The notes below the pieces were generated by a model, which was given only the letters and a program-made list of their open reading frames with translations, did not search any database and was not told the DNA's origin. Below, piece by piece: positions 1,691 through 50,559 of a stretch of DNA of 51,197 nt (the stretch's first letter is position 1; every line of letters starts with the position of its first letter). Position numbers and translations under genes: made by a program. Source of the DNA: a virus. Taxonomy: Duplodnaviria > Caudoviricetes. The DNA lies in the IMG/VR virus record IMGVR_UViG_3300005663_000062, positions 1 through 51,197 of that record; one strand, written 5' to 3'.

Positions 1691-3244
1691 TTAAACCTCT
1701 TGCTTATACATCTTAATTGTTGTTACAAGATTATGTTTTGCATCAATAAAATCGGGACACATTGTTAATACTCTGTGCAGGCATTCGACGGCTCGTCTAT
1801 ATTCACCATTTATTGTATAACAAGCCGCCAAATTCATTAAAATGTGTATATGGTTAGGACTGCATTTTCTCGCGTACTCGAAAGACTCTAATGAATTATC
1901 TAAATCTCTCTTTGTTAGAAATGCAACTCCACGATAATAGGCCAGCGGCATTCCAGCCCTGTCAAGATTGGCTAAGAATGGTAAATTATCTGTTACCGAT
2001 ATAACTCTGTCCCAATTTATATTTCTGGCACGATATATTTCCACGCTCTTCATAGATGTCTGAAGTTTTATAGTAAATCCAATTACGCACAATACAAGAA
2101 GCGCGATAGCACCGGCCGTATAAACTCTCTTAAACTTAATCAAAGCAGGTTTGTAATCTTTCATAGCAAGGGCAAAGAATATCATTAACAAAAACCACAG
2201 ATACGCCCTATGGCTCGGAAACGTAAAACAAGCGAAGGTTATATAACCAGCTATTCCAGCCCTTATTGCTCCACGACTGTAATATAGAGCTAAAATAAAG
2301 AGCAGTAAGTAGCTTGCAAATCCAAATATTCCTATTTCTGACCATTCCTGAAGAAAGTCGTTATGCGCCCATCCGATAAGTTTATTTTCACCATTACTGC
2401 CAATCTTATAATTTATATTTGCCCTCGTTTCCGGAGATGAATACTTTGCGTATAGCGGGAATATCAATTTCCAGTTTCCAGCACCAACTCCGGCAGGATA
2501 GTCCTTAATCATAATTGCAGTCTGCTTCCATATCTCTAATCTCTGCCCTAACGAACTGGTATTGTAGATGTCATTGCCTTTGCAAACTATAACCCCTAAT
2601 AGCAATAGGCCGCACAATGAAGGAATAAGATATTTCCTGTTAGATAAAGCAAATACTATCAATGCTGCGAATAACGCTAACCAGCTCGAACGCGCTCTGA
2701 GTGAGATTATCACAAACAAACTTAATCCAATAGCTACTAAAGAAGGAATCTTCCATTCTTTGTAGTAGTAGCTGCACAGTATCATCAAAAGCACAATGGA
2801 TGCAGCATTGAGATTCTTGCTATCCATTATCCCGACCCTTACTGCAATTGATTTAGACGAGAACTCATAAATACCATACAAGCCAAGGCATATAGTTGTC
2901 AGAATAATGACCTTGGCAATATTCAATTTCTTCAAGAGAGTTGCCAAACAGAGCATAATCAACATTGCATTGAACATTGAAAATGACCGGGAAATACTCT
3001 CGCCTTTATTAACAGCGAAACATATCGAATATGTCAGCCATAACCAGTAAGCTAAGTATGCGAGAAATACAGGATGCTTTAAGACGCCGAAATCTACTTT
3101 TACGAGAACTAAAAGCATTAGCGTCATTACGCCAAGCATTAACTGCCTTGCGGCCAAGTCACGACCATCTACATAACCATCAACAGAGACGGCGAGACAA
3201 AGCACTAATCCTGCAATAAAAACTATATTGGCACACCTAAGCAT
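1691..3244 (-). CDS. O-antigen ligase / O-oligosaccharyltransferase family membrane protein with C-terminal TPR
   Basis: About 10-12 hydrophobic segments; motifs N.NAA, RARSSWLA, QRLEIW...GVGAGNW and AHNDFLQEWSEIGIFG (Wzy_C/WaaL); C-terminal TPR (AYYRG...NLAACY...A.HNL). Likely start is ATG 3244 (MLRCAN); the ORF track extends to 3298. Confidence 0.85.
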   Translation of the reverse strand: MLRCANIVFIAGLVLCLAVSVDGYVDGRDLAARQLMLGVMTLMLLVLVKVDFGVLKHPVFLAYLAYWLWLTYSICFAVNKGESISRSFSMFNAMLIMLCLATLLKKLNIAKVIILTTICLGLYGIYEFSSKSIAVRVGIMDSKNLNAASIVLLMILCSYYYKEWKIPSLVAIGLSLFVIISLRARSSWLALFAALIVFALSNRKYLIPSLCGLLLLGVIVCKGNDIYNTSSLGQRLEIWKQTAIMIKDYPAGVGAGNWKLIFPLYAKYSSPETRANINYKIGSNGENKLIGWAHNDFLQEWSEIGIFGFASYLLLFILALYYSRGAIRAGIAGYITFACFTFPSHRAYLWFLLMIFFALAMKDYKPALIKFKRVYTAGAIALLVLCVIGFTIKLQTSMKSVEIYRARNINWDRVISVTDNLPFLANLDRAGMPLAYYRGVAFLTKRDLDNSLESFEYARKCSPNHIHILMNLAACYTINGEYRRAVECLHRVLTMCPDFIDAKHNLVTTIKMYKQEV

Positions 3245-3384
3245 CGAAGAATCCACCAAAATAAGGCTATCAGGAAACAAATAAGGCAAAGAGGCCAAAG
3301 AACTAATACTGCACCAAAGACAAATATAGTACGTATAACGTCTTTGGCCTCTAAACTATGCCTATTCTGTACAGGATAAGCCAT
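3223..3384 (-). CDS. small membrane protein (53 aa), not in the ORF track
   Basis: MAYPVQNRHSLEAKDVIRTIFVFGAVLVLWPLCLICFLIALFWWILRCLGVPI*; ATG 2 nt after the stop of 3387..4424; long hydrophobic stretch. Confidence 0.5.
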   Translation of the reverse strand: MAYPVQNRHSLEAKDVIRTIFVFGAVLVLWPLCLICFLIALFWWILRCLGVPI

Positions 3385-5535: not shown

Positions 5536-6564
5536 CTAAGTTGTGACAATTGTTTCTGTCGTGTCGATTGCATCCAGTCGTCTCACCGGCATATCGTGGA
5601 ACATTAACTGCGGCTGTCCGAAGGGATTGTTCGGACCCCAGAAGACGTTGACTTTGTCTTTGGCGAGAATCATTAACTGTACGAAAATGGTCTCATTAAC
5701 GTACATGTAAATCGTTCCCGGAGTCCTGTAATTGTAGCGGGTCTCGATAATCTTATCCTCGTCAAGCGTAGCTGCGTCCGTGGTTGAGTTGGTCGAGATA
5801 TTCGCCAGTCTCTTAACAGTTCTCGTATCCTCGATAGCCAGCCCGATGTCCCATGAAAATTCGGTGATATGTGCCCACAACTGCTTGTTGTTAGGCTCGA
5901 AGGACGGGGTATTGGAAGAAGAATCGGACAAGGTGTAGACCAGTCCCATGTCTTCTTTTTTGATACCGCCGCCTGTAGCGTTACGGGGATAGATTAAGTA
6001 AACGCCACCCGCTCGCCACTGGATGAACCAGATAGACGTTAGGGATGCGCCTGTACCTGCCGTAGCACCGTTGTTAGCCACATAAGCCGACCTTGACGTA
6101 CTAAGAGTGTTGTACCTCGCCAAGAGGCCGTCAAACTCTTCAGGAGGCTCCGCTGTCTTATTTCCGGCGACCATAGTATTAGCGAACTCCTGACCCATAG
6201 CCTCGATGTGAGGACGTTCCTGCTGCTGACGGAACTTGGCGGGATTCGGCTGGAGTCTCATAACATCGTCAGGGCATTGATACCTCGCCTTTTGCTGAGC
6301 GATTGTCTCTCTGACCTGATTCAGACGGCCTGCGGTGGCGTTCCAGCCCTCGCCTATCTTCACCCATGAGGGCTTAGGAAGTGCGGTACGCCTTGAGACT
6401 ACGTGTGAGGTAATATCATTAGCACGCTGAACGACAGCGTCCTGAATGAGATCGTTGGTTTCGTTCAATACTTCCGCTACGTCGATGATCTCCTGATTAT
6501 GAGTCATCCTCGCAGCGAGAAGCATGTTTTCTCTTTGGTTAATATCACTACTTGAAATAGCCAT
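5536..6564 (-). CDS. major capsid protein (HK97 fold, BPP-1 Bbp17-like)
   Basis: 342 aa; EVLNETN.LI.D, R..LP...W, HIEAMGQ, EEFDGL..RY, TSIWFIQW, IYP, F.W.IGL.I.D.R.V.R.ANI and PVRR.DAI..TE; strong AAAGGAG RBS. Confidence 0.92.
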   Translation of the reverse strand: MAISSSDINQRENMLLAARMTHNQEIIDVAEVLNETNDLIQDAVVQRANDITSHVVSRRTALPKPSWVKIGEGWNATAGRLNQVRETIAQQKARYQCPDDVMRLQPNPAKFRQQQERPHIEAMGQEFANTMVAGNKTAEPPEEFDGLLARYNTLSTSRSAYVANNGATAGTGASLTSIWFIQWRAGGVYLIYPRNATGGGIKKEDMGLVYTLSDSSSNTPSFEPNNKQLWAHITEFSWDIGLAIEDTRTVKRLANISTNSTTDAATLDEDKIIETRYNYRTPGTIYMYVNETIFVQLMILAKDKVNVFWGPNNPFGQPQLMFHDMPVRRLDAIDTTETIVTT

Positions 6565-6745: not shown

Positions 6746-7397
6746 CATATTGTAAATGTTTGTCATATACCTTCCGGGCCAACTCCCTATTACATGCGGA
6801 GAGTTGCTCCCAGGTAAACGTCGTTAATTTCTTACACAAACAAGAGTTATTAGTTTCTCTTGAATTTCTTTCTTTTATATCGGGTAACGACTCAAATGGA
6901 TGGTCTATCCTTTCGAGGAATTCAGGCCATACATCCGACAAGTCCTCCAGCCTGTATCGCCATACACAAAACTCTTCCAGTAACTCATTCCATTTGAGCC
7001 AGTATTGCATACAGCCTAAAAGTCCTCTTCCATGACACTCGATGACATGATTCATAAAGCCCCATGCCTGATGGTCAAACATTGACGCTATCTGTTTCAG
7101 TGGATGCCGTACCTGATGAAAACAGTTATCAGGTTTTATAATAGCCAGATGATAACCGACAGAGCCATCGACATCAGTTTTTTCGTGACCTATTTTGTAT
7201 CCTAACTTCTCCAATACCCTCGTCATGTAAATAGTGCCTGACCTTGCACACGCCGCCACGTATATACCCTTACCAGTAACCTCGCAGCCTTTATATTCCC
7301 AGACCGGTTCGCCGCGTCTATTCTTTACATACGCACCATCTTCAGATATTTTTACCGGTGCGCCGCATCGAGTTATAACTGGTATTTCAATTCTCAT
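6681..7397 (-). CDS. sulfotransferase-family protein (P-loop fold)
   Basis: 5'-PSB-like motif ACARSGTIYM and 3'-PB-like motif HQVRHPLKQIASM, followed by YW..WN and YRLEDL. Confidence 0.75.
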   Translation of the reverse strand: MRIEIPVITRCGAPVKISEDGAYVKNRRGEPVWEYKGCEVTGKGIYVAACARSGTIYMTRVLEKLGYKIGHEKTDVDGSVGYHLAIIKPDNCFHQVRHPLKQIASMFDHQAWGFMNHVIECHGRGLLGCMQYWLKWNELLEEFCVWRYRLEDLSDVWPEFLERIDHPFESLPDIKERNSRETNNSCLCKKLTTFTWEQLSACNRELARKVYDKHLQYGYSPARDREESIQSSGQPQGA

Positions 7398-8146
7398 TAA
7401 TACACATGCCCCTGAGCCACAAAGAATGCCCTTGCCTTCTTGGATTCGTCATCGTCCCCGTTCCTGTACATACCGGGAGATTTAGGATATTGAGGTTTGT
7501 ATTCAGCTTCCGTTTTATCGCCTTTCTGGTCGCCTTTTACAAAAGTATCAGTTGCAATCCTTTTGGCAAAGCTGAGAAACTCTTTAACGAATACGGGATG
7601 ATTATGCAGTCCGCTGTCAACTAACACCTGCCTGAATTCTTTACTACAATCGTTAGTTACAAACCTGTCGGCCAACTCAAAGTTGACATCATAATCATTT
7701 TTCCATTCGTCCTGTAATGACTTTTTCGCAACCTCCAGAGATTGTATAGATTGCTGAGACAATTCATCAAGCCAATTTCGCATAACAGTTTCCACTGCTA
7801 TCTTCGGCGCGCCTGTATCAAATGCCCATTGTTTAATTTTATTAACCATTTCCTGGTCGATAGGCACATTATCAGGCACTGTTATCTCGTAACCTTCCGG
7901 GGTATCGACACCTCTGATTTTGGCGTAGAAAGCCGAAACCTCTTCTTCGGGAGCGCCTTCGCCGGGTATCTTGATTTTGCCTGATGCCGACTTCTGGAGT
8001 TCACTGTAATCTCTTATCGCATCGTTAGGGTCTTTCCATCCCTGCTGAGTTACCAGTTCGGCATTCTCATCAGAAAACCAAGGGGCTGCTACTGCCGCAC
8101 CCTCTACCGTAGTATCTGTCATTAAACTTGATTCTGGTTCTGGCAT
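7397..8146 (-). CDS. capsid assembly scaffolding protein
   Basis: Acidic 249 aa upstream of the capsid gene; Y.ELQK, IPGE.A..EE...FY.K, P..YE, L..EW..DYD.N and GL.NHP.FVK motifs. Confidence 0.8.
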   Translation of the reverse strand: MPEPESSLMTDTTVEGAAVAAPWFSDENAELVTQQGWKDPNDAIRDYSELQKSASGKIKIPGEGAPEEEVSAFYAKIRGVDTPEGYEITVPDNVPIDQEMVNKIKQWAFDTGAPKIAVETVMRNWLDELSQQSIQSLEVAKKSLQDEWKNDYDVNFELADRFVTNDCSKEFRQVLVDSGLHNHPVFVKEFLSFAKRIATDTFVKGDQKGDKTEAEYKPQYPKSPGMYRNGDDDESKKARAFFVAQGHVY

Positions 8147-9546: not shown

Positions 9547-11292
9547 TTACACGCCTACCGCCTCTCCTATCGCCGCCAGAGGCGAGCCTTCGGCTGTTTC
9601 GCCTTGTAACTTCGGTACGCTGTCAGCCATCTGCTGAGCTTCCTGTAAAGCCTGCTGTCTTGCCAACTCCTCTGCCCGTTGCTCTCGTATCTCTTCGACT
9701 TGTGCCGTTGACCTCATACCCTCCTGTGGGAAATCACTCGCATCAAGTAGGGCTTCGCTGAGCCAGTCTTCATCCACTCGGTCAACTATGTTCGGAAACA
9801 GAACTGAAGCCTCTGCAATTTCTCGCAACCCGTTCTTTATTGGCTGTAATATAAAGAGTCTTCTTTGCGCCTGAGCGAGTGGGCCGGTGAAACGGACGCT
9901 GATTTTAGTCCTTTGATTGCCACGCTCCTTTTCCTCTTCGATTCTGTCAACTAATATCTGGGGCGGCTCAGGTAATCTTCCTGCCTTATTTTCAATATCA
10001 GCAACAATATCGAAGTTCTTACTAAGGCCATCTTCTGTGAGTCTATCGACCTGCGGCCCCATTAACTGCGCCTGCTCGGATTTTATCTCTATAATCTCGG
10101 TAGCCGTGGCCTCGCCCTGCCTTCCGATAAAGGCGTTGAAGAACTCCACCCTGTATCCACCGTTGATGAATCTCTCGTAATACTGCTCTCTGTCGAGACC
10201 TACGGGGAAATTACTTCCGGGGTTAATGACCTCTATCTTATCTCCGCCTCTTTCAAAGTAGTTGTTACCGTCAGCGTCCATTCTCACATGACCCCTCTGG
10301 GCTTCAGGGACGTTACGCGCGGGTCTTACCGCTAACTGTGAAGCCTGCAACAGGGTCTTACTGATAGTATTCAACTTTTCAATCGCTACCATGAAGTCCA
10401 TTGCCGGAGAGTAACCGTAGATTTCGTCGCTATTTTTCCTGAATCTCCACACAGCGTAAGGGAATACATCGTAGCCACTCTCTTTAACGATGAGGTCATT
10501 CATGCCGTCACCTACGCCAGCTAAAAGAATCTCCGAAGTCTGGTTGGGATCGTTAAAACCTCCGGTCGAACCTTTGGTCTGGACGTAAACCGACTTGAAC
10601 TTCTTATTAGTTGAAGTGATAGAACCGAACTGAGGTTCATCGTTGGGATAGACCGCATGGATGAATTCGTGTTTCTTCTCAGGATTGGAAATGGCGTTCT
10701 GAGTAATATCGTTAGTCAGTCTGTTCTCGTCGAACATCTGCACAGCCTGTCTTGCGGTTAGGAAGAACTTCCTGAAAAGGACATCGACGTTCTGAAACTT
10801 ATTCTCGGCAATAAAAACTTCTCTCAGGTGGATAGGTATGTGGACTGTCGTACCGCCTTTAATATCCTCCTCGACGTACATCGTAGCCGTTCCAATCGAA
10901 CCTGCATCGTTAAACCATTCATTCAATACAGAGTAGAAGTTCGACCTGTCGTAAGCGGCGTACATCGCCTCGTCGTATTCCTGTAAGAATATTCTCACCT
11001 CGTCAATATCGTTCAGGGTATGGTCGCTCATCTCAGACTTGAACCATCTGAGAGACTTCGATACCATGAAGCCCTGCATCCCATCCCGCCATATCCCCAA
11101 AGCACTCGCAGGGGTCGGGTCGAATATCGCCTTACCTCTCTTCTGACCCTTCTTATCGTTTCTCGAAGAGTCTCGTATCAGTTCCCTTCTGGGATTGGTA
11201 AACGAAGCCGCCTGCTGGATAAGAGGCTCGTAGTCCCGCTTGACCTCTTCAAGTTGTTTCTGTCTCAGTAAGATTTGTCCCTGACCGCTCAT
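9547..11292 (-). CDS. portal / head-to-tail connector protein (T7 gp8/Bbp21-like)
   Basis: 581 aa; IFDPT...A, WF, RSNFY, GTATMYVEED, ESGY..FPY.V.R......E.YGYSP and TATEI motifs. Confidence 0.93.
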   Translation of the reverse strand: MSGQGQILLRQKQLEEVKRDYEPLIQQAASFTNPRRELIRDSSRNDKKGQKRGKAIFDPTPASALGIWRDGMQGFMVSKSLRWFKSEMSDHTLNDIDEVRIFLQEYDEAMYAAYDRSNFYSVLNEWFNDAGSIGTATMYVEEDIKGGTTVHIPIHLREVFIAENKFQNVDVLFRKFFLTARQAVQMFDENRLTNDITQNAISNPEKKHEFIHAVYPNDEPQFGSITSTNKKFKSVYVQTKGSTGGFNDPNQTSEILLAGVGDGMNDLIVKESGYDVFPYAVWRFRKNSDEIYGYSPAMDFMVAIEKLNTISKTLLQASQLAVRPARNVPEAQRGHVRMDADGNNYFERGGDKIEVINPGSNFPVGLDREQYYERFINGGYRVEFFNAFIGRQGEATATEIIEIKSEQAQLMGPQVDRLTEDGLSKNFDIVADIENKAGRLPEPPQILVDRIEEEKERGNQRTKISVRFTGPLAQAQRRLFILQPIKNGLREIAEASVLFPNIVDRVDEDWLSEALLDASDFPQEGMRSTAQVEEIREQRAEELARQQALQEAQQMADSVPKLQGETAEGSPLAAIGEAVGV

Positions 11293-11835: not shown

Positions 11836-12007
11836 GATTAAGCCTTTCCTTTCCAGTCAGTAATCGCGTCTCTTACAACATCATTAACTTCTATATCATC
11901 TGTGCAGATGTGTATTTCGTCAGCCGGAAACCCAATACGTCCACTCGCCACGACAAATCCATCGTCTGCTTCTGTAATAGTTATTTCGTGTCGTTTTAAT
12001 TGTTCCA

Positions 12008-12430
12008 TCAGGCTTTACCAAGTAAAAGAAATTCGAACGCGTCCGTATTTGAGGCAGCGTCTATCACCACACCTAAATTACCAGCCGGATTTATAGATAT
12101 AAGATTAGCGTCGCCACTTTGAATTACAACGTGGGCAGCGGCCTCGGCGAATGTAGTAGTTCCCGCCGTATCCAGTTGTAAGAAGATAGTGCCGGACAAC
12201 GCCTTGATATAGAGATAAGTCATCTTCGTTAATGCTATCTGCGGAGCGAGGTCGCTAAGTTGTAACGCCGTCGCTGTCGCCGTAGCAACTACAAGCCTGC
12301 TCGGTGTAAATTCCACAGGTACGGTTAGAGTCAAGTCGTCGGGGAGTCCCTCAGAGTCAACGCCGTAAGTTATCGCCTGTCCGAGTCCTGTTACTTCAAG
12401 TTTAATATTTAATGTAGCTACACCTGCCAT
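12008..12430 (-). CDS. hypothetical (probably virion) protein
   Basis: 140-aa A/T/L-rich ORF coupled by TAATG to the upstream gene. Confidence 0.55.
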   Translation of the reverse strand: MAGVATLNIKLEVTGLGQAITYGVDSEGLPDDLTLTVPVEFTPSRLVVATATATALQLSDLAPQIALTKMTYLYIKALSGTIFLQLDTAGTTTFAEAAAHVVIQSGDANLISINPAGNLGVVIDAASNTDAFEFLLLGKA

Positions 12431-12648
12431 TAGTCTTTCTCCTTAAATTCACCACACCAGTCATCTGGCCATACCGCGCTATGTTCTTTCGCCATTTCTG
12501 TCTCTGGATTTTTATCATTTGAATTGTGATGCGTAGGGGGGTAACGATGACAGAATCCATAGTCACAGGTGTCAGCGTTATGCACGCCTTCTTTTTCATA
12601 AGTCCACGATGAATACCACTGAAAATATTTACAATCTTTACATTTCAT
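12430..12648 (-). CDS. small Cys-rich phage protein (CxxC...CHRYPP...DWCGEF)
   Basis: Motif pattern common in phage small proteins; ATGA overlap with TerL. Confidence 0.65.
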   Translation of the reverse strand: MKCKDCKYFQWYSSWTYEKEGVHNADTCDYGFCHRYPPTHHNSNDKNPETEMAKEHSAVWPDDWCGEFKEKD

Positions 12649-14180
12649 ACCGTTATCGGATTCCAGTCTCCTGATTCTCCTTCATTTACAGCATCCATGA
12701 AATACGGCAAGTAAGTCTTCGATACCCCGATAGGCCTGCCGTCAATATACAAGTGCCAGCGGTATGCCCTCGCCAAATGCCTGACGGCATCGGCTACGTG
12801 GCACGTCCAGTCCTTGACCGGATCACGATGGTATGCGGGTTTATCGTCCGTACTCAACTGTTCATTCTTCTTCTTTCTATATTTCTTCAATGCCGTTACT
12901 AAATCACGGCATTTAAGCTTATTTATTCTTAATTTTGTAAATATGCCCCTTACTTCCTCAATACCGTCATTAAATCCATGCTTCTCGACACAGTGCATAT
13001 CGTAACCAAGCTCTGCAAAACTGTCTCTTACCGTCTTACCGCCCCGCTTGCGGTTACTTCCAGTGTCGGGGTCTAAGTCCCAACCCGCCCAGTGAGCCTG
13101 ACGGGGAGCATAATTGTAAGGCTTCGTATCCATCATCTTCGCATAACCCGATACGCCAATACCGTCGTTATCGTAATAAAAGTCTATTACGCGCACTGTA
13201 CTCTGGATAAACTGGACAAATAATATAGCCGTATAAATATCGCCGTAGTCACCGAAAGTATAGACGGGCATATGCTCATCATGTGGGTAATCGCCTATAT
13301 GCTTTTCGCCCTTCAGAGCCGCCATTCTATCACCGTAAAACGTGCCTTCGAGGTAAGTTGGGAACTCGCCCAGGACTCTAATCCTGAAAATGTTACTGTC
13401 CTCGCCGTGCTCGGCAGCCATATCTTCATAGTATGTTCGTCCGGCTACGGACTGGATAATATCCTTACCCTCTTTGTAGTTGGGCGTGTCCTTAACGCTT
13501 ACGTTTATTACATTCCATCTACTCTCCGGCTGGCATATCTTGTAAAAATAACCTGTCGGGTCTGTCGGGTTACCTATCGCTAAAAAATGACAATTACTGT
13601 TTATCATTAACCCCTGCGTCGCCGCATTCCAAATCGGACGAATAATACCACAGGCTTCGTCGAAAATTATCAACACCCATTTGTTATGGTATCCCTGCAT
13701 CTTCGTGGCCTGCTCGGTGGCGGTATCGGGAGAGGTAGCGAAACCGAGAGCAAAGTTTAGTTCCCACTGGCCTCTCTCTTCAGGCGGTAAACCTTTGAGG
13801 ATGGAAGGTGATGGCTTGCAGTCCCACGTTAAAGTAGTCATCTTGCCGCCTAAAGGTATCTTAGACCCTGAATACGCAGAGTGTATCTCTTTCCATAACT
13901 GGTTTTTTACTAAAGTGTCAGAGGGGGCGGTGGTAATCACGGTAGAAGGCTGAAAGCATGTCTTAAACCATACAGCTATTCTCGCCGCTCCATAAGTCTT
14001 GGAAACGCTGTGACAGGCGGGAACAGCGGTGTACATATTGTCACGTACACTATTCGCTATTTCTTCCATCTTGGGCCAGAAATCCTTTACGCCCAGACAA
14101 TTTTCTATAAAACCGCGAGGGTCGCGTTGATAACCCCGCATCTTCTCTGCTATTAACTTGTGAGAATTAGTTACTTTCAT
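12645..14180 (-). CDS. terL: terminase large subunit
   Basis: Walker A-like ACHSVSKT, ITTAP, Walker B IIFDEA, AIGNPT; C-terminal nuclease D...HVADAVRH. Likely start ATG 14180 (MKVTN); the ORF track starts at 14198. Confidence 0.93.
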   Translation of the reverse strand: MKVTNSHKLIAEKMRGYQRDPRGFIENCLGVKDFWPKMEEIANSVRDNMYTAVPACHSVSKTYGAARIAVWFKTCFQPSTVITTAPSDTLVKNQLWKEIHSAYSGSKIPLGGKMTTLTWDCKPSPSILKGLPPEERGQWELNFALGFATSPDTATEQATKMQGYHNKWVLIIFDEACGIIRPIWNAATQGLMINSNCHFLAIGNPTDPTGYFYKICQPESRWNVINVSVKDTPNYKEGKDIIQSVAGRTYYEDMAAEHGEDSNIFRIRVLGEFPTYLEGTFYGDRMAALKGEKHIGDYPHDEHMPVYTFGDYGDIYTAILFVQFIQSTVRVIDFYYDNDGIGVSGYAKMMDTKPYNYAPRQAHWAGWDLDPDTGSNRKRGGKTVRDSFAELGYDMHCVEKHGFNDGIEEVRGIFTKLRINKLKCRDLVTALKKYRKKKNEQLSTDDKPAYHRDPVKDWTCHVADAVRHLARAYRWHLYIDGRPIGVSKTYLPYFMDAVNEGESGDWNPITV

Positions 14181-14196
14181 AATTTTCTCAAGGCAC

Positions 14197-14237
14197 AAAA
14201 AAAGAACCGCATAGGTGTATAGCCCTATACGGCTCTT
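14197..14237 (-). terminator. intrinsic terminator immediately upstream of terL
   Basis: mRNA AAGAGCCGUAUAGG-8 nt-CCUAUGCGGUUCUU followed by a U-run; 14-bp stem with 2 G-U pairs. Confidence 0.8.
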
Positions 14238-14250
14238 AGTTTGTCTTTCG

Positions 14251-14297
14251 TCAACCAGCCCCTGCCGGTTCGGTTGAACCCATTATTCAGTTGTCAA
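14251..14297 (-). promoter_or_regulatory. boxA-like antitermination element plus hairpin
   Basis: TTGACAACTGAATA resembles rRNA-leader boxA variants (TTGAAAACTGAA); followed by a TCAACC...GGTTGA stem, then the terminator. Confidence 0.35.
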
Positions 14298-14585
14298 TTA
14301 AGCTTCTTTTAATACTTTTTGAATATCAAGTTCTTTGGGATAAATAAAATGTATTTTATCATTTCCCCATTGAATAACATATACAGAAGACTGCCTCGGC
14401 TCTAACATATCAGGACTACCATAAATATCATCGCTGATAGTATTGCACATACGAGACACTTCTTTATCCGTCAATGCTCTATCATAGATATAAGCAGGAA
14501 TTTCGGCAGCCTTCTCCTTTGCCATCAAAACCGATGGTGCTATCGGTGAAATCGCAATCAGTTTTAAGAAGTTTCTACGTTCCAT
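14298..14585 (-). CDS. twin-arginine (Tat) signal small protein carrying LamG-like and major-capsid-like fragments
   Basis: MERRNFLK Tat motif; YIYDRALTDKEV resembles the LamG C-terminus; SSVYVIQWGNDKIHFIYPKE aligns ungapped to the capsid segment TSIWFIQWRAGGVYLIYPRN. Confidence 0.75.
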   Translation of the reverse strand: MERRNFLKLIAISPIAPSVLMAKEKAAEIPAYIYDRALTDKEVSRMCNTISDDIYGSPDMLEPRQSSVYVIQWGNDKIHFIYPKELDIQKVLKEA

Positions 14586-14841
14586 AAATCGTTCCCTTAC
14601 TCACAAATTTGCACACATCACCATCCTTTGCGCCGTCGAAAGGCATACGCAATCCCCCAAATTTATCAGTGGCTCTACTGGCGTCAACTTCTTTGTCGTT
14701 TATATAAAAACTCCAAGGCGCCTCTCTTCTTTTCTTTAAGCCAGAAGGAGGCCAAGGTGCATAGTTACTCTCCTTCGCCATCAGTACACTCGGTACGATG
14801 GGGGAAAGACCCAACAGTTTAAGAAATACTCTGCGATTCAT
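14575..14841 (-). CDS. twin-arginine (Tat) signal small protein, paralog of 14298..14585
   Basis: MNRRVFLKLLGLSPIVPSVLMAKE, near-identical signal region; different C-terminus. Confidence 0.75.
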   Translation of the reverse strand: MNRRVFLKLLGLSPIVPSVLMAKESNYAPWPPSGLKKRREAPWSFYINDKEVDASRATDKFGGLRMPFDGAKDGDVCKFVSKGTIYGT

Positions 14842-15035
14842 AGCTTTGTCCTAAGTGGCGAGGGCGTGTTTGACCCTTCATCGACTACCAATGGTTCGTT
14901 TATTACTAAAACAGGCTTTACGAGATATTCTAATAACATTGAATTCTGTTTAATTATAAACATATTCTGCTCAAGGATTTCGTCAATAGTTTTTAATACA
15001 TCTTTGCTGACTTTAACTATTTCTATTCTGTTCAT
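14838..15035 (-). CDS. hypothetical protein
   Basis: GAGG RBS, ATGA overlap with the next gene. Confidence 0.55.
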   Translation of the reverse strand: MNRIEIVKVSKDVLKTIDEILEQNMFIIKQNSMLLEYLVKPVLVINEPLVVDEGSNTPSPLRTKL

Positions 15036-15123
15036 TCAAATCCTCATAATGTACCGCCCAAAACGTCCTGCTGTATCGCCAGTGTATGTATTTGTTTAAT
15101 AGCCAAATCATAGTCTTTTCCTT

Positions 15124-15777
15124 CTAACATTCCGCACTTATCATCATAGTATACGCAAAACAGTTCAATGACCTGCTCTTTGTTATGAATTCTTTTCCAA
15201 TCTTAGGAAATTTCACTACGTATCTTATTTCTTTAATCACAAAACCAGCCTTATTTAGCATATATTTAATAAGCCCTAACGAAATAAACGTATGATGCTT
15301 GCATTGGCCGTATCTTCTGTATATGAACTCTTGATAAGAATAACCAAATAATATCCTCAGACGATTTACCAAATTTAAATCATAAGGGACAGAACATAAT
15401 AACTGACCACCCTTAACTAACACTCTTTTGATTTCCTTCATTAAGAATATCGGATCGAAAACATGCTCGATAATATCACCGGCCCATACCACATTAAACG
15501 CACCGTCAGGATACGGAATACCGGTATCCAAGTCATGCACTTTGCAGTTGAGACCCTTCTGCTTCGCTAAACCAATGGCCACCGGAGAGAAGTCCAATCC
15601 TGTTAGTTCGTGGCCGTCATCCTGTAATCGCTTCATTATCTCGCCCGAACCACAACCAATATCCAGTATGCTACTCACAGATTCACCCAGGAAATTAAAG
15701 AGAGCTTCCTCGGCTTTCGATATTAAGCATCGCTTGCCGGTTCTGTATCCGTTGTTTTCACGTTCTACGGGTATCAT
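15124..15777 (-). CDS. class I SAM-dependent methyltransferase (Methyltransf_11/23 type, often in glycan loci)
   Basis: ILDIGCGSG, GLDFS, DLD..IPY.D..FNVV...DIIEHV.DP and RVL..GG.L..SVP. Confidence 0.88.
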   Translation of the reverse strand: MIPVERENNGYRTGKRCLISKAEEALFNFLGESVSSILDIGCGSGEIMKRLQDDGHELTGLDFSPVAIGLAKQKGLNCKVHDLDTGIPYPDGAFNVVWAGDIIEHVFDPIFLMKEIKRVLVKGGQLLCSVPYDLNLVNRLRILFGYSYQEFIYRRYGQCKHHTFISLGLIKYMLNKAGFVIKEIRYVVKFPKIGKEFITKSRSLNCFAYTMMISAEC

Positions 15778-16178
15778 TCAATTATCCCCACAAATTCACA
15801 TAGCACACCCGGAGCATTCGGGTCAAGGGAAAGAAAACCGCTTCTAAGTAACGCCTCTGCCTCCTGTTCGAGACCAAGTTCTTTTATCCTGACTTTAAGT
15901 TCATTACTTATCTCCACTTCCTGCTCATGGACAAACTCTTTGGCTCGTCTTCTATCAGCTTCCTCTTTAGTGATAAACTCAAGCCCCTCAATTCGTACAT
16001 TATCAGCACCTATTTCAATAGTAGATTCCACTACCACCGTACCGTTGCTATCCGGACTCCACGCATGCTTCGCCTCTAAATTCTCTATTCGCAACTCAGT
16101 TATCCACCATGAAAAGACAAGCAAACTTAACACAATCAAGAGTATGATAATACGTAATTCTCGTTTAGCCGGCTTCAT
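15774..16178 (-). CDS. membrane-anchored protein containing one beta-helix-like rung
   Basis: N-terminal TM IIILLIVLSLLVFSWW; TIEIGADNVRIEGLEFIT resembles EFVVGAANIVIYNLRFVT of 3387..4424. Confidence 0.6.
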   Translation of the reverse strand: MKPAKRELRIIILLIVLSLLVFSWWITELRIENLEAKHAWSPDSNGTVVVESTIEIGADNVRIEGLEFITKEEADRRRAKEFVHEQEVEISNELKVRIKELGLEQEAEALLRSGFLSLDPNAPGVLCEFVGIIE

Positions 16179-16495
16179 ATGTCAAGAGCTTTCGTGGGAG
16201 AGCTGCATTTACTGCACAAACCATAACGAGACCAATTACTTACGCGACCACATATATAGCAATTGTAAGACTCAATGATAGCATCAGGTGTGGCAAAGCT
16301 ATCTACAGCATCAAGAGGTGATGGGATTTCGACAGGATAAGTCAAAGGCGTACCATACATCACTTCCATCGCCAAAGTGGGGTTAGTCATAAATAAGGCC
16401 TCCACCTGCTCCTGTGCCGCAAATCGAGCATTGTTCGTTATAGGAAAGCCACAAGAATTTACAAACCGGACTAATTCATTATATATGTCAAACAT
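16175..16495 (-). CDS. hypothetical protein with C-terminal Zn-finger (CxxC...CxxC)
   Basis: CYIC...CSKC; ATGA overlap. Confidence 0.55.
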   Translation of the reverse strand: MFDIYNELVRFVNSCGFPITNNARFAAQEQVEALFMTNPTLAMEVMYGTPLTYPVEIPSPLDAVDSFATPDAIIESYNCYICGRVSNWSRYGLCSKCSSPTKALDI

Positions 16496-16685
16496 TACGG
16501 GTTATCCTGATAATAAAGTTATATACTATAAACCTGAAATTAAAATTCCATCCGTACCATCCACCCCTCTTGCCATCGTAACATCGCATTAATTCAAAAC
16601 CTAAACCTCCTACGTTACTGGGATGATATTCACCTAATAAAATGTGCCTGTTACCTATATTAAAATTTGTACTTAACATTGTCAA
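16488..16685 (-). CDS. hypothetical protein
   Basis: AAGGAAG RBS, AT-rich ORF. Confidence 0.4.
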   Translation of the reverse strand: MTMLSTNFNIGNRHILLGEYHPSNVGGLGFELMRCYDGKRGGWYGWNFNFRFIVYNFIIRITRNV

Positions 16686-16799
16686 GCACTTCCTTAAAGA
16701 ATGATATTTCAGTTATACAAAGACCCCCTTGGTACCTTATCGTCGCACCAGACCGAAGCCCCCTCCCCTACCCGGCCTTCTCTTAGGATGCGTCCTTTT

Positions 16800-17330
16800 T
16801 TATTCATGTGCTCGTATCTCGTAGTCCTGTTGATAGCCTGTGTCCGGCTCTGCGCTGAGTGTATCATCCGTTGATATGCCTACGCCTGTATATGGCCTGC
16901 CCGGACATACCTGCTCATAGTGCATGGCGTTGGCCATCCTTGTAGTGCGTGCCTGCTCATCGACTGTGCCGTCCGGGTTGGTAGTCAGACGGTTGATGCC
17001 AGCTACGATAGATGGATGTAGCTCGGGCTCATCGCCTATCCTCGGCGGTGCTGCTCCTGCTCTCTTGGCCTTAGCTCTACCACTCCAGGCACATGGGCCA
17101 CAGCATACGAGTATCGGCTCTATCTCATTACCACAACACCAACAATGTCCGGGCTTGACAAGCTGTGTGCGCTGTCTGTGCGCCTTGTCATTAGGGCCAA
17201 GCTTATCAGGCACGGTAACGCCTCCATTCTCATAGGTAACGCCTTCATTAAGTAACGCCTTTTGCTTGGCTTTGTAACGCCTTTGGCGCTCGGCGTTAGC
17301 CTCTTTCTGTTTATCCTTGTCTTTATACAT
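16800..17330 (-). CDS. hypothetical protein downstream of terS (basic N-terminal helix, Cys cluster)
   Basis: MYKDKDKQKEANAERQRRYK...GVT repeats; CWCC...CCGPC. Confidence 0.65.
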   Translation of the reverse strand: MYKDKDKQKEANAERQRRYKAKQKALLNEGVTYENGGVTVPDKLGPNDKAHRQRTQLVKPGHCWCCGNEIEPILVCCGPCAWSGRAKAKRAGAAPPRIGDEPELHPSIVAGINRLTTNPDGTVDEQARTTRMANAMHYEQVCPGRPYTGVGISTDDTLSAEPDTGYQQDYEIRAHE

Positions 17331-34984: not shown

Positions 34985-35851
34985 TTATTTAGCTGCTGCC
35001 GTTCTTGTTCCTATCGTATCGGATTCGATATGTAAACCTACTTCTGTCAGGAATGGATCGCCCGTAGGCTCTGTGCCTGTTGAGGCTATCCTTCTTACCC
35101 TGCCTTTAACTATCGCTCCCTGAACAAAACTTCCCGATGTATCGTTATCTATATGGAGTGTGAATCCGGTAAGGTCTGTTGTTGATGCGGGTATAGTCAA
35201 TTCTCCATCAATCGTAGTCGTAGCTGGATACACATCTCCAAAACCAGCTTCAGGGGGAACGTCTGCGATTGTATATTCTATTTCAAACTTAATAGTCCTG
35301 TCATCTACATTACTTCCATTTAATGCACCATGAATGTGAAACTCAATCAAAGCAGCATTCTTATAAGAATGAGCGAGTTCAGTAGAGAACTCCTGAAAGT
35401 CATTCAAGTCATAAGCGTAGGCGTTAAGATTGCCAACGAAGCTATCCCACGAAGGTGCGTTTGCCGCCGGTACTCTCGCACTGGATAGAGGAACGACTAA
35501 ATCATTAAACACAGTTGCAGCACCATTCATTACATAAGTGCCGTCAGCTTCAAAATGAGAATAATCTACTGCTCCACCGAACCATGCTTCTCCTTGCACT
35601 TCCAAATTCTTTTCAATAAGTAAATGGCCGCCGGAATCACTTACATGGTTAGCCGAAATCGTTGTCGTACTAATTATGTTTAAAGCAGTTGTCGTTACGC
35701 CCGGTGCGGCAGGTGCTATAGTACCCGGAAAACCTATTATATGTAATCGGTCAACAGAAGAAAGAATACCATCCGGCACAGGGGCAACGACAAGAAACAT
35801 CAAGCTCATGCCAAGCATTGACCGCCTTTTTGTCTCAGTATCTATTGCCAT
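34985..35851 (-). CDS. tail fibre/virion protein
   Basis: MAIDT..KR.S start, YSHFEADG....G.ATV..DL, C-terminal beta-sandwich (H.YK....FHIH, HIESDTIG). Confidence 0.65.
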   Translation of the reverse strand: MAIDTETKRRSMLGMSLMFLVVAPVPDGILSSVDRLHIIGFPGTIAPAAPGVTTTALNIISTTTISANHVSDSGGHLLIEKNLEVQGEAWFGGAVDYSHFEADGTYVMNGAATVFNDLVVPLSSARVPAANAPSWDSFVGNLNAYAYDLNDFQEFSTELAHSYKNAALIEFHIHGALNGSNVDDRTIKFEIEYTIADVPPEAGFGDVYPATTTIDGELTIPASTTDLTGFTLHIDNDTSGSFVQGAIVKGRVRRIASTGTEPTGDPFLTEVGLHIESDTIGTRTAAAK

Positions 35852-47266: not shown

Positions 47267-50200
47267 TTAATCTGGCTCCACTTGAACGTCTAAGGACAAC
47301 GCTAATACTGTCATTGGTACAGGGTCGGTCTGTCTTACAATGACAGTGCCGCTCTTGTCATACTCGCCTTCAAAGTCCATTTCTATATCGTCGGTAGTCA
47401 ATGGGAATTCGGCGGAACTCTCACCCGCCTTACGGTAAACTATCGGATTAAGGTTATCTGTAGAACTGCCCCATTCGCCACGCATCGTCTTAAAGAGACT
47501 CAAGACCCCTTCAAGTATATGATAGGTAGCCGAACGGCCTTGATTCTCTATATTCAGTTTCATTGGCTTTAGTGTAGAAGTGTATCCGAGTCCTATCTGT
47601 ACCGTAGAGGCTGTAGTCGTTACTCCATTTAGTTTCAAAGTTATATCGCCACTGCCATCTACTACCGCTTCATCGAATACCACACCATCGGCATAAACCT
47701 GAACAGTCTCGGCTATGAGATGGTCTAATCCTGTCGTTATCGAGGAAGTTGCTGTAGAGTCGTAAGTAAAGCCCGAATCGACAAAGAAAGCGTCATCCTC
47801 GTCTGCACCCCAATTCCTCGGTTTGAACCTTTCCACGTATCTAACTGTACCGCTATTTATAGTTCTTTTGACTGTTACCCAGACCTCATCTTCGCTTCTC
47901 TCACCACCGTATATCACCGCTACGGACTCGAAAGACGAATCGGCATCACCGTCAACAGTAACAAGACGACTCCATGCGAATACCTTTTGCTCGCGTTCGT
48001 AAGACATTATCGCCATCTGGCCGTCGTTTCTCACACACCACAGAATCGGATCGGGAGTTCTCTGGTATGCCATATCCACTACGCCGTCAGTCTTAGCCTC
48101 GCCCATGATATGCTCTGCGAATACTGTCAGGTCGTCGGCTTTGTAAGAATCGGAATTGAAATCAAACAGTAGTTCCCGTATCTTCTTACCGCCTCGCTCT
48201 GCAAAGAGTACAGCCTGATTTATCATTATCGCCGCTACATCCTCAGAGCCTTTAGTAGTCTGGAGTCTCGCGCGAACGTTCGTAGGTGTAAGAGCTTCAT
48301 CTACCTTAGATGCACCGAGTAAGTGCGCACCGCCTACCGTTCCTATGACAAGTGCTTCTCTGGGTATAACCCACCGTATCCGGTTCTGTTGGCCTGTGCC
48401 TACTAATGTGAAGATGATGGAAGAGTTGTCGTCAGTACCACCTGAATAGTCCGTAAAATCGCCGGAAGCACTGCCCCATGTAGTTAAAGGCCCAGACACA
48501 CTACCTACGAAAGTCAGTCTTTCCTCTGCGCTTATCGTAACGTCGATAGGCCATCCTCTGAAGTTACTGAAACTTCCTTCTGAGAAGCGATGAGTTTTAT
48601 CTGTTGAGCCGAGAGTCTTGAGTACTATTGCGGTTGCACTTTGCGGAGTAGCTACTTGTATTATTTCAACTATTCCTACATGAGAGGTGTCCCTCACAGA
48701 TATTTGAATACTTGCATCTCCAGTACCATCGCCGTTAGTCACTCTCGCTCGATAAGTTGCATCTGCAAACTCTTCCGTACCTGAAGTTACAATGTTCTTA
48801 TTTGCCAAACTTGTTACAGTAACTATTGTTTCTTTGGTTGTGAAGGAGTCGTAACTTCTCTCTAAAACGATAGTTGAAGGGCCACCTGTTCCCCATGTCC
48901 CATTAGTTGTAAAATCCCAGGTAATTCCTTTTGGAACTGCAAGTGCAGTAGTAGCAGCATCAACTGTTGTGGAATCAATCGTTTCTCCTATACTTGGCGT
49001 ACCCGTAGCATGAACAAGTTTGAATAATGCTCCGGTTTGTGATTTAGATGTAGCAGAATTACCGCTTGGCCTATGTCCTGCCGTTGTCCCTAATACGAAT
49101 GGCGAATGACCAACTGCTGTTAAGGTAACTTGACCAACTAAAGCAGAAGACGTTATTGTCTTTGCGGTATCATCGTTTTCATCACGAAATGGCCCCGTTG
49201 TAATATCTGATTCCTCCAGAAACCATGCAGAATCATCAAATCTTGATAATCTTCTCTGTTCATAAGAGGGATGAGTAATGAATAAAACATCTGCTGATGT
49301 CTCAAATTTTAACGTAGGTATATCAGCAGTAAGATAAGGAGTGGTTATGCTATAAGCAGTAGTAGAATCAACTCCTTTCAATGCCGCTATTTCCGCAGGC
49401 GTCAGTTCTTTATTAAAAATCGCTATATTATCTACATCGCCAACCCATTTATCTGCAAATGCCACTCCTACTGCACCTATTAAAACATCAGCACCTAAAT
49501 TTTCCATTGCAGTGTAGTTTGCTATAGTTGCGATACTGGTAGGTATTAAAGACCAATCTACGTAAAATTTTATATCGTCCTGACGAAACTCTGATGCAGC
49601 GCCTGTACCACCCGCCCCATTATATGTAACGACTATAAAATGCCAACCATCTGATATAGAAGTCCCCGAAAAGACAGTGTAGCTCCCGCCGGTACTCTCA
49701 TCGAAAAGAGTCATCCTCAGTGTGTCATCATTGAATATTTGCAATTTCCATTCAGAATTTATCCCTTGGTCATCTTTTGCTATAATAGTCTGCCTTCCAC
49801 CATCAGTTTCGTACCGCACCCATATAGCAATAGTAAATGGAGAATCATTCGTGCCATCTCCAAAAGAAAAGTCATCATGGTCTGTAACCGTAATATATGC
49901 TGCATCACCTAAATCAAGGGCCGTATTCGCATTACCAGCAGCATCAGTAGTAGTTAATGTATCTGTATTTGCCGAAGCGGCACCGTTATGAGTTGCCCCG
50001 TCAGCATCAACTACAACTGTATCACTGAGATTATCATCACATTTCCAATGAGCGACAATAAACGAGGATAATGCACTCAAATCTTCTGTACCAAAAGGCT
50101 TGAAAACAGGCGATGGACTTGCCCCTCCTGTAAAGAACTGCAATCTCTGATTCTCAAATAATAAGATATAGGTATCGTCAACTGAATGCTCGAATCCTAC

Positions 50201-50404: not shown

Positions 50405-50559
50405 TTTTAGGTTGAACTCCCACAAAGAAGAGGTATAGTATGTTTAGCTAATGGGAACGCAGTAATTCCCTGAATATTAAAGGCAGTTAGTAGGCGTTGA
50501 ACACTTAACTGTGTTCTCATTAGCTCGCTGAAAGCTGCCTTAATTTTATGGAGTTTGTT

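What the first reader, a model, noticed from the sequence alone, without database searches (positions are those of the whole stretch)
14298..14585. Tat-signal mini-protein that is a patchwork of major-capsid and LamG fragments: candidate virion-mimic decoy
Seen: after a canonical twin-arginine signal (MERRNFLK...LMA), the 95-aa ORF reads YIYDRALTDKEV, matching the LamG C-terminal motif in this phage's tail genes (YNRVLTQSEI, IFNKELTPAEI). It ends SSVYVIQWGNDKIHFIYPKE, which aligns without gaps to the capsid segment TSIWFIQWRAGGVYLIYPRN (5980-6039; 7/20 identical, most others conservative). The intervening NTISDDIYG..MLEPR loosely echoes capsid NTMVAG...GLLARY, as if conserved capsid motifs were condensed. 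Known: some bacterial defences sense virion proteins (CapRel senses capsid; Avs senses portal/terminase). Inference: this gene lies upstream of the terminator gating the late genes, so it could be made before real capsid. It could act as a decoy that titrates sensors or drags them to the Tat translocon/membrane, or that poisons assembly of competing related phages. I know of no described system of this kind.
Basis: partly seen in the sequence, partly recalled or inferred. Interest (0 to 1): 0.88.

Follow-up and report, generated by a model that had tools for sequence, protein, structure and literature searches.

The report
Export-tagged phage mini-protein copying virion motifs
A 95-residue phage gene joins a bacterial export-type (twin-arginine) leader to short copies of conserved pieces of virion proteins, certainly of the capsid, and it belongs to a small, shuffled, selected gene family that I found described in no paper and whose purpose is untested.

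Summary
The ORF at 14298-14585 (- strand) is real. It has a ribosome-binding site and overlaps a tandem paralog (14575-14841) that shares its leader. The leader carries RRxFLK plus 14 uncharged residues and is under purifying selection (pN<pS in 45 of 45 pairs). No Tat-signal HMM reaches threshold, and export is untested.

The capsid-like hairpin (residues 66-85) is far beyond chance. Pfam GP7 gives E=0.0021. My own capsid HMM gives 19.0 bits, with 0 of 300 shuffles above 2.3 bits. It recurs in homologs.

The LamG echo is supported only through homolog P0007. The middle segment looks portal-like, not capsid-like, and on the query alone it is not significant.

About 14 non-redundant relatives in metagenomes reshuffle the same modules behind the same leader. 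They usually sit just upstream of terL, even where terL is of another type. Cargo modules are selected (pN/pS 0.17-0.77).

The decoy function remains pure inference. AlphaFold gives no confident fold.

Earlier notes of this scan report the same theme (a Tat leader plus virion fragments) in at least nine other genomes. I found no paper describing it.

The parts
14298..14585 (-). 95-aa mini-protein gene (the finding), stop included
   Evidence: The start has an AAGGGA-type ribosome-binding site 7 nt upstream and overlaps the 3' end of the paralog by 11 nt (read). The exact protein is on record in public collections.
14520..14585 (-). Leader, residues 1-22: RRNFLK motif plus 14 uncharged residues ending LMA
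   Evidence: Shares E 8e-11 with the paralog. pN<pS in 45 of 45 pairs among 10 genes. No Tat HMM hit.
14451..14504 (-). LamG-C-terminus-like module, residues 28-45 (suggestive only)
   Evidence: Homologous to P0007 residues 25-47, which hit Laminin_G_3 profile positions 129-151 of 151 at E 0.021. The query alone is not significant.
14400..14447 (-). Portal-like module, residues 47-62 (suggestive only)
   Evidence: The homologous stretch of P0007 matches window portal residues 283-312 and Pfam Head-tail_con positions 259-284. The query alone is not significant.
14331..14390 (-). Copy of the capsid beta-hairpin, residues 66-85
   Evidence: The AF2 model of the mini-protein has strands 69-73 and 77-81.
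14575..14841 (-). Tandem paralog, 88 aa: same leader, different cargo
   Evidence: Its C-terminal module is shared with L004 and L005b at pN/pS 0.17-0.19.
14202..14237 (-). Intrinsic-terminator-like hairpin between the mini-protein gene and terL
   Evidence: 14 pairs, 6 G-C, T run
12645..14198 (-). Large terminase gene directly downstream (start more likely the ATG at 14180)
   Evidence: PHROG hits. 55% identical to the terL of L007.
5980..6039 (-). The original hairpin inside the major capsid gene (5536-6564), capsid residues 176-195
   Evidence: Capsid hits Pfam GP7 at E 1.2e-69 and epsilon15 gp7 (3J40) at E 1.8e-37. AF2 model strands 175-181 and 188-192 come right after the long helix 108-133.
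10357..10446 (-). Portal segment (residues 283-312 of the portal gene 9547-11292) matched by family member P0007
49379..49441 (-). C-terminal strand of the LamG domain of tail protein 47267-50425 (residues 329-349), matched by P0007

Best explanation
The ORF encodes an accessory mini-protein of a small, horizontally shuffled phage gene family.

Shown:
- A nearly invariant twin-arginine-type leader, conserved at the protein level.
- A short cargo (about 50-115 residues across members) assembled from 15-30-residue modules that are exchanged between members.
- In this protein, one module is a selected copy of the conserved beta-hairpin that follows the spine helix of the epsilon15-type (HK97-fold) capsid protein.
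- Relatives carry further capsid pieces (N-arm), portal pieces and a LamG-domain C-terminus.
- The gene sits in a variable island at the end of the operon ahead of terL.

Inferred:
- It is made before or with the first late proteins.
- The leader takes it to the host Tat translocase or membrane. The cargo is small enough to be accepted unfolded.
- The cargo acts as a linear mimic of not-yet-assembled core virion proteins in a conflict role. The most likely role is occupying or mislocalising host sensors that recognise capsid, portal or tail proteins. Alternatively it interferes with the assembly of co-infecting relatives.

The mimicry mechanism is a hypothesis and has not been demonstrated.
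For: Family and leader. An exhaustive phmmer search of 1.84 billion representatives gave 9 proteins at E<=0.001: the query itself, 7 relatives and one unrelated repeat protein. Metagenome and genome scans added loci L004-L009, and the closest relative L010 carries a member too. Leader pN<pS in 45 of 45 pairs, with dS often saturated.

Capsid copy. My capsid HMM gave 14.0-21.7 bits for 6 of 18 family entries, with 0 of 300 shuffles reaching these scores (highest shuffle 5.3 bits). Pfam GP7 hit P0001 (E 0.0021), P0003 (1.9e-4) and P0008 (0.03).

Other virion pieces:
- P0007 matches Laminin_G_3 (E 0.021) and the portal family (E 0.033). Against the window's own proteins, 4 and 7 of 1000 shuffles reach its scores.
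- The L007 member matches its own capsid twice: hairpin 9/19 identical, E 0.002, and N-arm 11/29 identical, E 8e-4.
- A second-leader ORF in L008 matches portal residues 161-217 (1 of 1000 shuffles).
- The module shared by L004 and L005b matches the most conserved portal window (conservation rank 3 of 564).

All Pfam hits of members below E 0.05 are to families present in this phage. Pfam holds 24,736 models.

Selection on cargo: pN/pS 0.17-0.77 in 10 informative pairs.

Position. Members lie within about 1.1 kb upstream of terL in the window, L004, L005, L008 and L010, although four of these have a non-homologous GpA-type terL. A terminator follows the gene.

Variability. L010 has an 89% identical capsid but unrelated cargo. 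This is typical of conflict genes.

Precedents read in papers:
- Tat tolerates unstructured hydrophilic segments of 100-120 residues (PMC6708511, passages).
- A short capsid peptide (Gol) activates the Lit protease (PMC8829019, passages).
- DSAD1 competes with the tail tube protein for the DSR2 sensor (PMC11087589, abstract and passages).
Against: No Tat-signal HMM reaches threshold: Pfam gives only P0007 at E 0.26, and NCBIfam gives none of 10 members. The leader is short.

The same review says a short hydrophobic stretch stops Tat export of unfolded cargo, and the hairpin is hydrophobic.

Known sensors are cytoplasmic, and to my recollection mostly read folded proteins. An exported peptide would not meet them unless binding comes before export.

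11 of 15 distinct members have no Pfam hit to any virion family, and the L010 cargo matches nothing significantly.

In L009 the last 20 residues are simply a duplicated 3' end of the neighbouring sugar-synthase gene. So cargo can be built by recombination accident from non-virion genes.

The copied hairpin is a core strand pair, not an obvious surface (inferred from element order).

The query's hairpin is no closer to its own capsid (7/20 identical) than to the median of 129 related capsids.

The AF2 model has low confidence (pLDDT 53.5).

There are no expression data.
Confidence: 0.45

Rival explanations
1. The leader is the working part, and the cargo is largely filler assembled by illegitimate recombination as the cassette moves. 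The leader might occupy or jam the Tat translocase, bind a signal-peptide chaperone, or act as a small membrane peptide. Virion-gene pieces would appear only because they are the recognisable part of what gets captured.
For: The leader is far better conserved than the cargo. The leader is an 82%-identical 73-nt island between unalignable flanks in L010 versus the window. The L009 cargo ends in a copy of the neighbouring NeuB-like gene's 3' end, and a 43-nt direct repeat (36/43 identical) flanks a roughly 400-bp insert. 11 of 15 members have no virion-family hit. The cargo has no confident fold.
Against: Cargo modules are under purifying selection (pN/pS 0.17-0.19 over 52 codons; 0.29 for the hairpin). 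They are kept across members whose leaders differ strongly (P0001 versus P0003). The copies are old: 4-10 of 20 residues identical to 129 capsids, with no near-identical source. Neutral filler would have decayed over that time. 3 of 5 mapped pieces lie in the top 10% most conserved windows of their proteins.
Confidence: 0.25
2. The virion-like pieces are docking tags. By strand or arm mimicry they attach the mini-protein to procapsid, portal or fibre subunits. It would then be either an assembly regulator or a packaged, ejected protein whose hydrophobic leader acts on the next host's membrane. A variant is a Tat 'hitchhiker' escort for a virion protein.
For: The L007 member copies two elements of its own capsid, including the N-arm. 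The gene sits next to the packaging and head genes.
Against: The gene lies upstream of a strong terminator-like hairpin rather than inside the late operon. The family is absent from 4 of 5 related phage records. Cargo is unrelated in the closest relative, which has an 89% identical capsid. The hairpin is not closer to the phage's own capsid than to others.
Confidence: 0.12
3. It is a secreted signalling pro-peptide of the arbitrium (AimP) kind: the leader exports it, and a short processed piece is sensed by phages in neighbouring cells.
For: Small size, an export-type leader, tandem paralogs and hypervariable mature parts. AimP is a secreted phage peptide (PMC11323111, passage).
Against: No receptor-like gene is adjacent. 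The neighbours are a SAM methyltransferase and small unknown ORFs, and the only TPR protein is an O-antigen-ligase fusion about 11 kb away. This reading does not explain the virion-motif copies. From recall, AimP uses a Sec-type signal.
Confidence: 0.05
4. It is chance resemblance or decaying debris of duplicated structural genes, with no function.
For: Each single match is short (about 20 residues) and below Pfam's curated cutoffs. hhalign probability is only 6.4%.
Against: 0 of 300 and 0 of 1000 shuffles reach the capsid scores. The same hairpin occurs in 5 distinct members. The ORFs are intact, have ribosome-binding sites and are coupled. pN<pS holds in leader and cargo. The pieces come from at least three different proteins and sit in scrambled order.
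Confidence: 0.03

Closest known systems
Twin-arginine (Tat) signal peptides and small or unfolded Tat cargo (Pfam PF10518, TIGR01409)
   Same: An RRxFLK motif right at the N-terminus, a moderately hydrophobic stretch of 14 residues containing Ser, Pro and Gly, an Ala at the likely cleavage site and a Lys just after it (read). The cargo length is within the 100-120 residues that Tat tolerates unfolded (PMC6708511, passages).
   Different: No Tat HMM reaches threshold. The leader is very short, and its hydrophobic part is almost invariant across phages, which ordinary signal peptides are not. The cargo is not a folded cofactor enzyme. Export is untested.
Major capsid protein of epsilon15 type (Pfam GP7 PF20911; PDB 3J40)
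   Same: Residues 66-85 align without gaps to the conserved hairpin of this family (profile positions 153-173). The hairpin is present in the phage's own capsid and in epsilon15 gp7.
   Different: Only about 21 of 313 profile positions are present, so it is a copied motif and not a capsid protein. It shares 7/20 residues with its own capsid and at most 10/20 with any of 129 relatives.
Gol peptide of T4 gp23 and the Lit protease
   Same: A short linear stretch of a major capsid protein is by itself biologically active towards a host defence protein (PMC8829019, passages).
   Different: Gol is part of the real capsid protein and triggers defence. Here a separate gene carries the stretch behind an export-type leader, and no partner is known.
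DSAD1 and other phage proteins that compete with a virion protein for a host sensor
   Same: The idea is the same: a phage protein occupies the site at which a sensor reads a structural protein (PMC11087589, abstract and passages).
   Different: From the passages read, DSAD1 carries no described export leader or similarity to the tube protein. Whether this mini-protein binds any sensor is untested.
Phage morons and small accessory proteins with signal sequences (superinfection-exclusion proteins, arbitrium AimP)
   Same: Small, optional, hypervariable genes inserted between conserved modules. The L009 copy shows a cassette-type insertion with a junction duplication.
   Different: None of those known to me, or found in searches or in the review PMC11323111 (find mode: no 'twin-arginine', 'Tat' or 'capsid'), is built from copies of virion-protein motifs.

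Membership tests
Tat signal peptide | Twin-arginine consensus (S/T)-R-R-x-F-L-K near the N-terminus | tested here: met
   The query has E-R-R-N-F-L-K at residues 2-8. The paralog and 12 further members have N/K-R-R-x-F-L-K. The consensus itself is recalled, and the review PMC6708511 was consulted.
Tat signal peptide | Uncharged h-region followed by a small-residue cleavage site | tested here: inconclusive
   Residues L9-A22 are uncharged and end L-M-A, followed by K-E. No signal-peptide predictor was available.
Tat signal peptide | Score above the curated cutoff of PF10518 or TIGR01409 | tested here: not met
   The query has no hit at E<=1 (Pfam) or E<=10 (NCBIfam). Only P0007 hits, at E 0.26 and 11.8 bits against a cutoff of 22.7.
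Tat signal peptide | Tat-dependent export | not testable with these tools
   Needs reporter fusions in wild-type and tat-mutant cells.
Major capsid protein GP7 (PF20911) | Full HK97-type fold and a score above 27 bits | tested here: not met
   17.4 bits over profile positions 153-173 only. The AF2 model has no confident fold.
Laminin_G_3 (PF13385) | Jelly-roll domain match above 27.6 bits | tested here: not met
   The query has no hit. Homolog P0007 scores 15.4 bits on the last 23 profile positions only.
Portal protein Head-tail_con (PF12236) | Portal domain match above 27 bits | tested here: not met
   The query has no hit. P0007 scores 13.1 bits on profile positions 259-284.
Phage anti-defence decoy or competitor (DSAD1-like in principle) | Binds a host sensor at the site used by the virion protein | not testable with these tools
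   No host and no sensor are known for this marine-sediment phage.
Arbitrium-type signalling peptide | Adjacent receptor gene (TPR-type AimR) | tested here: not met
   The neighbours are a SAM methyltransferase and unknown small ORFs. The only TPR protein is 1691-3298, fused to Wzy_C.

The most novel reading that the evidence does not exclude
Phages carry export-tagged 'strings of motifs' copied from their core virion proteome (capsid hairpin and N-arm, portal motifs, fibre LamG strand). These mini-proteins are made ahead of the late genes. They bind host pattern-recognition sensors, or rival phages' assembly intermediates, through the copied linear motifs. They then remove their targets from the cytoplasm by handing the complex to the Tat translocase. 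This would be a protein-level decoy-and-expel counter-defence of a kind not described.
Probability: 0.15. Interest if true: 0.95.

Novelty: categorically new. Interest (0 to 1): 0.76.

Why it matters
If the architecture is functional, it is a way for a virus to use short linear copies of its own most conserved structural motifs as tools. It would tie the bacterial Tat export pathway to phage-host or phage-phage conflict, and I found no paper that makes this link (searches; review PMC11323111 in find mode).

It would give a direct handle on an open question: which parts of capsid, portal and tail proteins bacterial sensors actually read. The copied modules would mark them.

Even under the dullest reading (an active leader with recombination-built filler), the family is a clean example of how new mosaic genes are assembled in phage genomes.

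The theme recurs in earlier notes of this scan on at least nine other genomes with other capsid types (unchecked AI notes). It is therefore probably general and not a curiosity of one phage.

Tried and rejected
- Phage GenBank collection. Megablast of 12000-17000 gave no match. tblastn of the ORF gave only two chance hits at E 2.
- Word-based protein search. Only the protein itself was found. A search among longer proteins with residues 26-95 scored none of 13 candidates at E<=10. No fused or source protein was found, which is weak evidence.
- IMG/VR scans for the leader. 29 pattern matches were found and none confirmed. A broader degenerate DNA pattern found only the contig of L010.
- terL relative L003 (39% identity) has no member.
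- Complex prediction of capsid with residues 25-95: 'no answer'. This is not evidence either way.
- AF2 of the mini-protein: pLDDT 53.5 and pTM 0.19. I therefore ran no fold search.
- ESM Atlas. The nearest clusters score 0.80-0.88, under the 0.9 mark. Among them are two viral hypothetical clusters, a periplasmic Fe-hydrogenase small subunit and a TAT_signal cluster. These are leads only.
- Sequencing runs. No RNA holder is listed. The three DNA runs are from one marine-sediment study and may be the source sample.
- Rejected: the match of the paralog's cargo to the protease/scaffold-like protein 7397-8146 (42 of 1000 shuffles reach it).
- Rejected: the L009 hairpin-like stretch as a capsid match (59 of 1000; -3.3 bits).
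- Rejected: matches of the L010 cargo (best E 0.02 to the 72-aa ORF 12430-12648).
- P0004 (298-aa repeat protein) was dropped from all family analyses as unrelated in architecture.
- Supplementary files of papers were not opened. Small-protein catalogues such as PMC11364881 (search listing only) may list this family in tables I did not see.

Full report
WHAT IS THERE

The window is a complete 51,197-bp virus record, and nearly all its genes are on the - strand. The ORF 14298-14585 (-) encodes 95 residues. It has an AAGGGA-type ribosome-binding site 7 nt before its ATG. Its start overlaps by 11 nt the end of an 88-residue ORF (14575-14841). That ORF in turn is coupled by an ATGA overlap to a 65-residue ORF (read).

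The two small proteins share their first 24 residues (blastp E 8e-11; own-genome search E 2.9e-6), and the rest differs. A terminator-like hairpin (14-bp stem plus a T run) lies at 14237-14202 (-). The large terminase gene follows directly. The portal gene is 9547-11292 and the epsilon15-type capsid gene is 5536-6564 (Pfam GP7 E 1.2e-69 and Head-tail_con E 2.7e-96; PDB 3J40 E 1.8e-37 and 8CK0 E 1.3e-42).

CHECK OF THE OBSERVATION

The hairpin match (residues 66-85 against capsid residues 176-195) is 7/19 identical. It is well beyond chance:
- Pfam GP7 E 0.0021 and PHROG 212 E 0.012.
- 0 of 1000 shuffles reach the Smith-Waterman score.
- An HMM that I built from 50 capsids gives 19.0 bits, while 300 shuffles reach at most 2.3 bits.
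- hhalign of the family alignment against a 47-capsid alignment picks the same columns (E 0.0058, probability only 6.4%).

In the AF2 model of the capsid (pLDDT 75.3) the segment is a beta-hairpin (strands 175-181 and 188-192) directly after the long helix 108-133. In the HK97 fold this would be the start of the A-domain sheet; I infer this from the order of elements and have not checked it in 3D.

The LamG resemblance is not significant on this protein (no Pfam hit). The claimed capsid echo of the middle segment is not supported.

RELATIVES

The word-based search found only the protein itself. The exhaustive phmmer search of 1.84 billion representatives found 9 proteins at E<=0.001: the query, 7 relatives, and one repeat protein that I set aside. 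Pattern scans added five metagenome loci, plus one 52-kb phage-like contig binned in a Thermodesulfovibrionales MAG. The closest relative of the whole phage, L010 (capsid 89% identical), also has a member. Counting near-duplicates once, this is about 14 proteins.

All carry the same leader, and behind it the modules are reshuffled:
- The hairpin module recurs in P0003, P0008/L007, L004 and L005b.
- The segment around DIYGSPDML recurs in P0002, P0005 and P0006.
- The LTDKE-containing segment recurs in P0007 and P0009.
- The paralog's C-terminal module recurs in L004 and L005b.

Pfam scans of 15 distinct members gave hits below E 0.05 for 4:
- GP7 for P0001, P0003 (E 1.9e-4) and P0008 (E 0.03).
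- For P0007, Laminin_G_3 (E 0.021, the last 23 profile positions) and the portal family (E 0.033).

All are below curated cutoffs. All are families present in this phage, out of 24,736 models. The other 11 members have no such hit.

Against the window's proteome, the best-ranked pairs are capsid, portal and LamG tail proteins. My portal HMM gives P0007 10.0 bits (0 of 300 shuffles). It gives the module shared by L004 and L005b 4.3 bits (0 and 1 of 300) at the portal's most conserved window.

The member in L007 matches its own capsid twice, at the hairpin and at the N-arm, in swapped order.

The query's segment 28-62 is homologous to the LamG-like plus portal-like stretch of P0007 (residues 1-59 against 3-61). 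I therefore read it as LamG-like plus portal-like, by transitivity only.

SELECTION AND AGE

The leader has pN<pS in 45 of 45 gene pairs, and synonymous sites are often saturated. Cargo modules give pN/pS 0.17-0.77 in 10 informative pairs, including:
- 0.17-0.19 over 52 codons for the paralog's module.
- 0.29 for the hairpin (16 codons).

The query's hairpin shares 4-10 of 20 residues with 129 related capsids, 7 with its own. It is therefore an old, maintained copy and not a recent duplicate. Three of five mapped pieces lie in the top 10% most conserved windows of their proteins, and two do not.

GENOMIC BEHAVIOUR

Members sit within about 1.1 kb upstream of terL in the window, L004, L005, L008 and L010, although in those four loci terL is a non-homologous GpA type. 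In L007 the member sits just before the portal gene. In L009 it sits among sugar-synthesis genes downstream of the head genes.

In L010 against the window, the 73-nt leader is an 82%-identical island between unalignable flanks. In L009, a 43-nt direct repeat (36/43 identical) flanks a roughly 400-bp insert, and the member's last 20 residues are a copy of the neighbouring NeuB-like gene's end. This is a cassette insertion that builds cargo by recombination.

The family is optional. It is present in 1 of 5 related records searched whole.

WHAT THE LEADER IS

By reading, it fits a Tat signal: RRxFLK, 14 uncharged residues containing Ser and Pro, and Ala then Lys at the likely cleavage site. By HMM it does not qualify. 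Atlas neighbours include Tat-signal clusters, but below the reliable score.

The near-invariance of its hydrophobic part is unusual for a signal peptide. It suggests a specific partner. Export is not shown.

MECHANISM

Shown: a leader plus mosaic cargo, a selected capsid-hairpin copy, and a position ahead of terL.

Inferred: early-to-middle expression, targeting to the Tat machinery, and action of the unfolded cargo as a linear mimic of virion proteins. For the cargo, AF2 gives pLDDT 53.5 with the hairpin predicted, and its size is within Tat's tolerance for unfolded cargo (PMC6708511).

I rank the readings as follows:
- Mimicry in a conflict role (sensor decoy, or interference with rivals): 0.45, of which the specific decoy-and-expel idea is about 0.15.
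- Active leader with filler cargo: 0.25.
- Docking tag or assembly role: 0.12.
- Signalling peptide: 0.05.
- Debris or chance: 0.03.

The strongest counter-evidence to mimicry is the following:
- The L009 capture of a non-virion piece.
- The 11 of 15 members without recognisable virion pieces.
- The core location of the hairpin rather than a surface location.
- The topological problem that known sensors are cytoplasmic.

COMPARISON AND NOVELTY

The protein is not a member of the capsid, LamG or portal families, because only motif-length matches exist. It meets the Tat-signal definition at motif level only.

Functionally, the nearest precedents are:
- The Gol peptide with Lit.
- DSAD1, which competes with the tail tube protein for DSR2.
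- Small secreted phage proteins.
None of them combines an export leader with copied virion motifs.

My literature searches and a review of phage small proteins (PMC11323111, find mode) gave no description. I did not see supplementary tables.

Earlier notes of this scan report the same theme in at least nine other genomes, with other capsid types. They are unchecked AI notes and raised only my belief that the theme is general. My own reading was formed before I saw them.

Noticed in passing
L009:7785-8227: A 43-nt direct repeat (36/43 identical) covers the end of a NeuB-like gene plus the ATGA junction to the next gene. It flanks a roughly 400-bp insert holding a 66-aa ORF and the leader-bearing ORF. 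This looks like a cassette insertion that duplicated the junction.
   Followed up: partly
L010:2395-4038 versus window 12645-14198: The closest relative (capsid 89% identical, flanking genes syntenic) has a non-homologous GpA-type large terminase in place of the window's terL. The leader-bearing ORF is kept just upstream.
   Followed up: partly
L008:3027-3320: A second leader type (three arginines, a different hydrophobic part) is fused to a stretch resembling portal residues 161-217 of the window (1 of 1000 shuffles reach the score). It lies downstream of terL in the same contig as a regular family member.
   Followed up: partly
family members P0002/P0005/L006, L004/L005b, P0006, L010: Four different cargo C-termini end in tyrosine (…TEY, …TIY, …QIY, …HRY). 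This is more than composition would suggest. The window's 95-aa protein does not end this way.
   Followed up: no
window 14838-15035 (-): A 65-aa ORF is coupled by ATGA to the 88-aa paralog. It has a weak, non-significant resemblance (E 0.5-1.4) to the cargo module of P0002/P0005/L006.
   Followed up: no
window 14180-14198 (-): The listed TTG start of terL at 14198 lies 4 nt after the terminator's T run. An ATG at 14180 with a purine-rich stretch before it looks like the more likely start. Either way there is no room for a promoter between terminator and terL, so terL needs read-through.
   Followed up: no
window 1691-3298 (-): An O-antigen-ligase (Wzy_C) domain is fused to TPR repeats inside the head/tail gene block.
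   Followed up: no
window 47267-50425 (-): The tail protein's LamG region also scores just under the cutoff for Pfam Toxin_R_bind_N (23.5 versus 23.8 bits). This is probably shared jelly-roll fold only.
   Followed up: no
window 34985-35851 (-): A 288-aa protein in the tail region begins with a KRR motif followed by a hydrophobic, proline-containing stretch, a loose likeness to the leaders.
   Followed up: no
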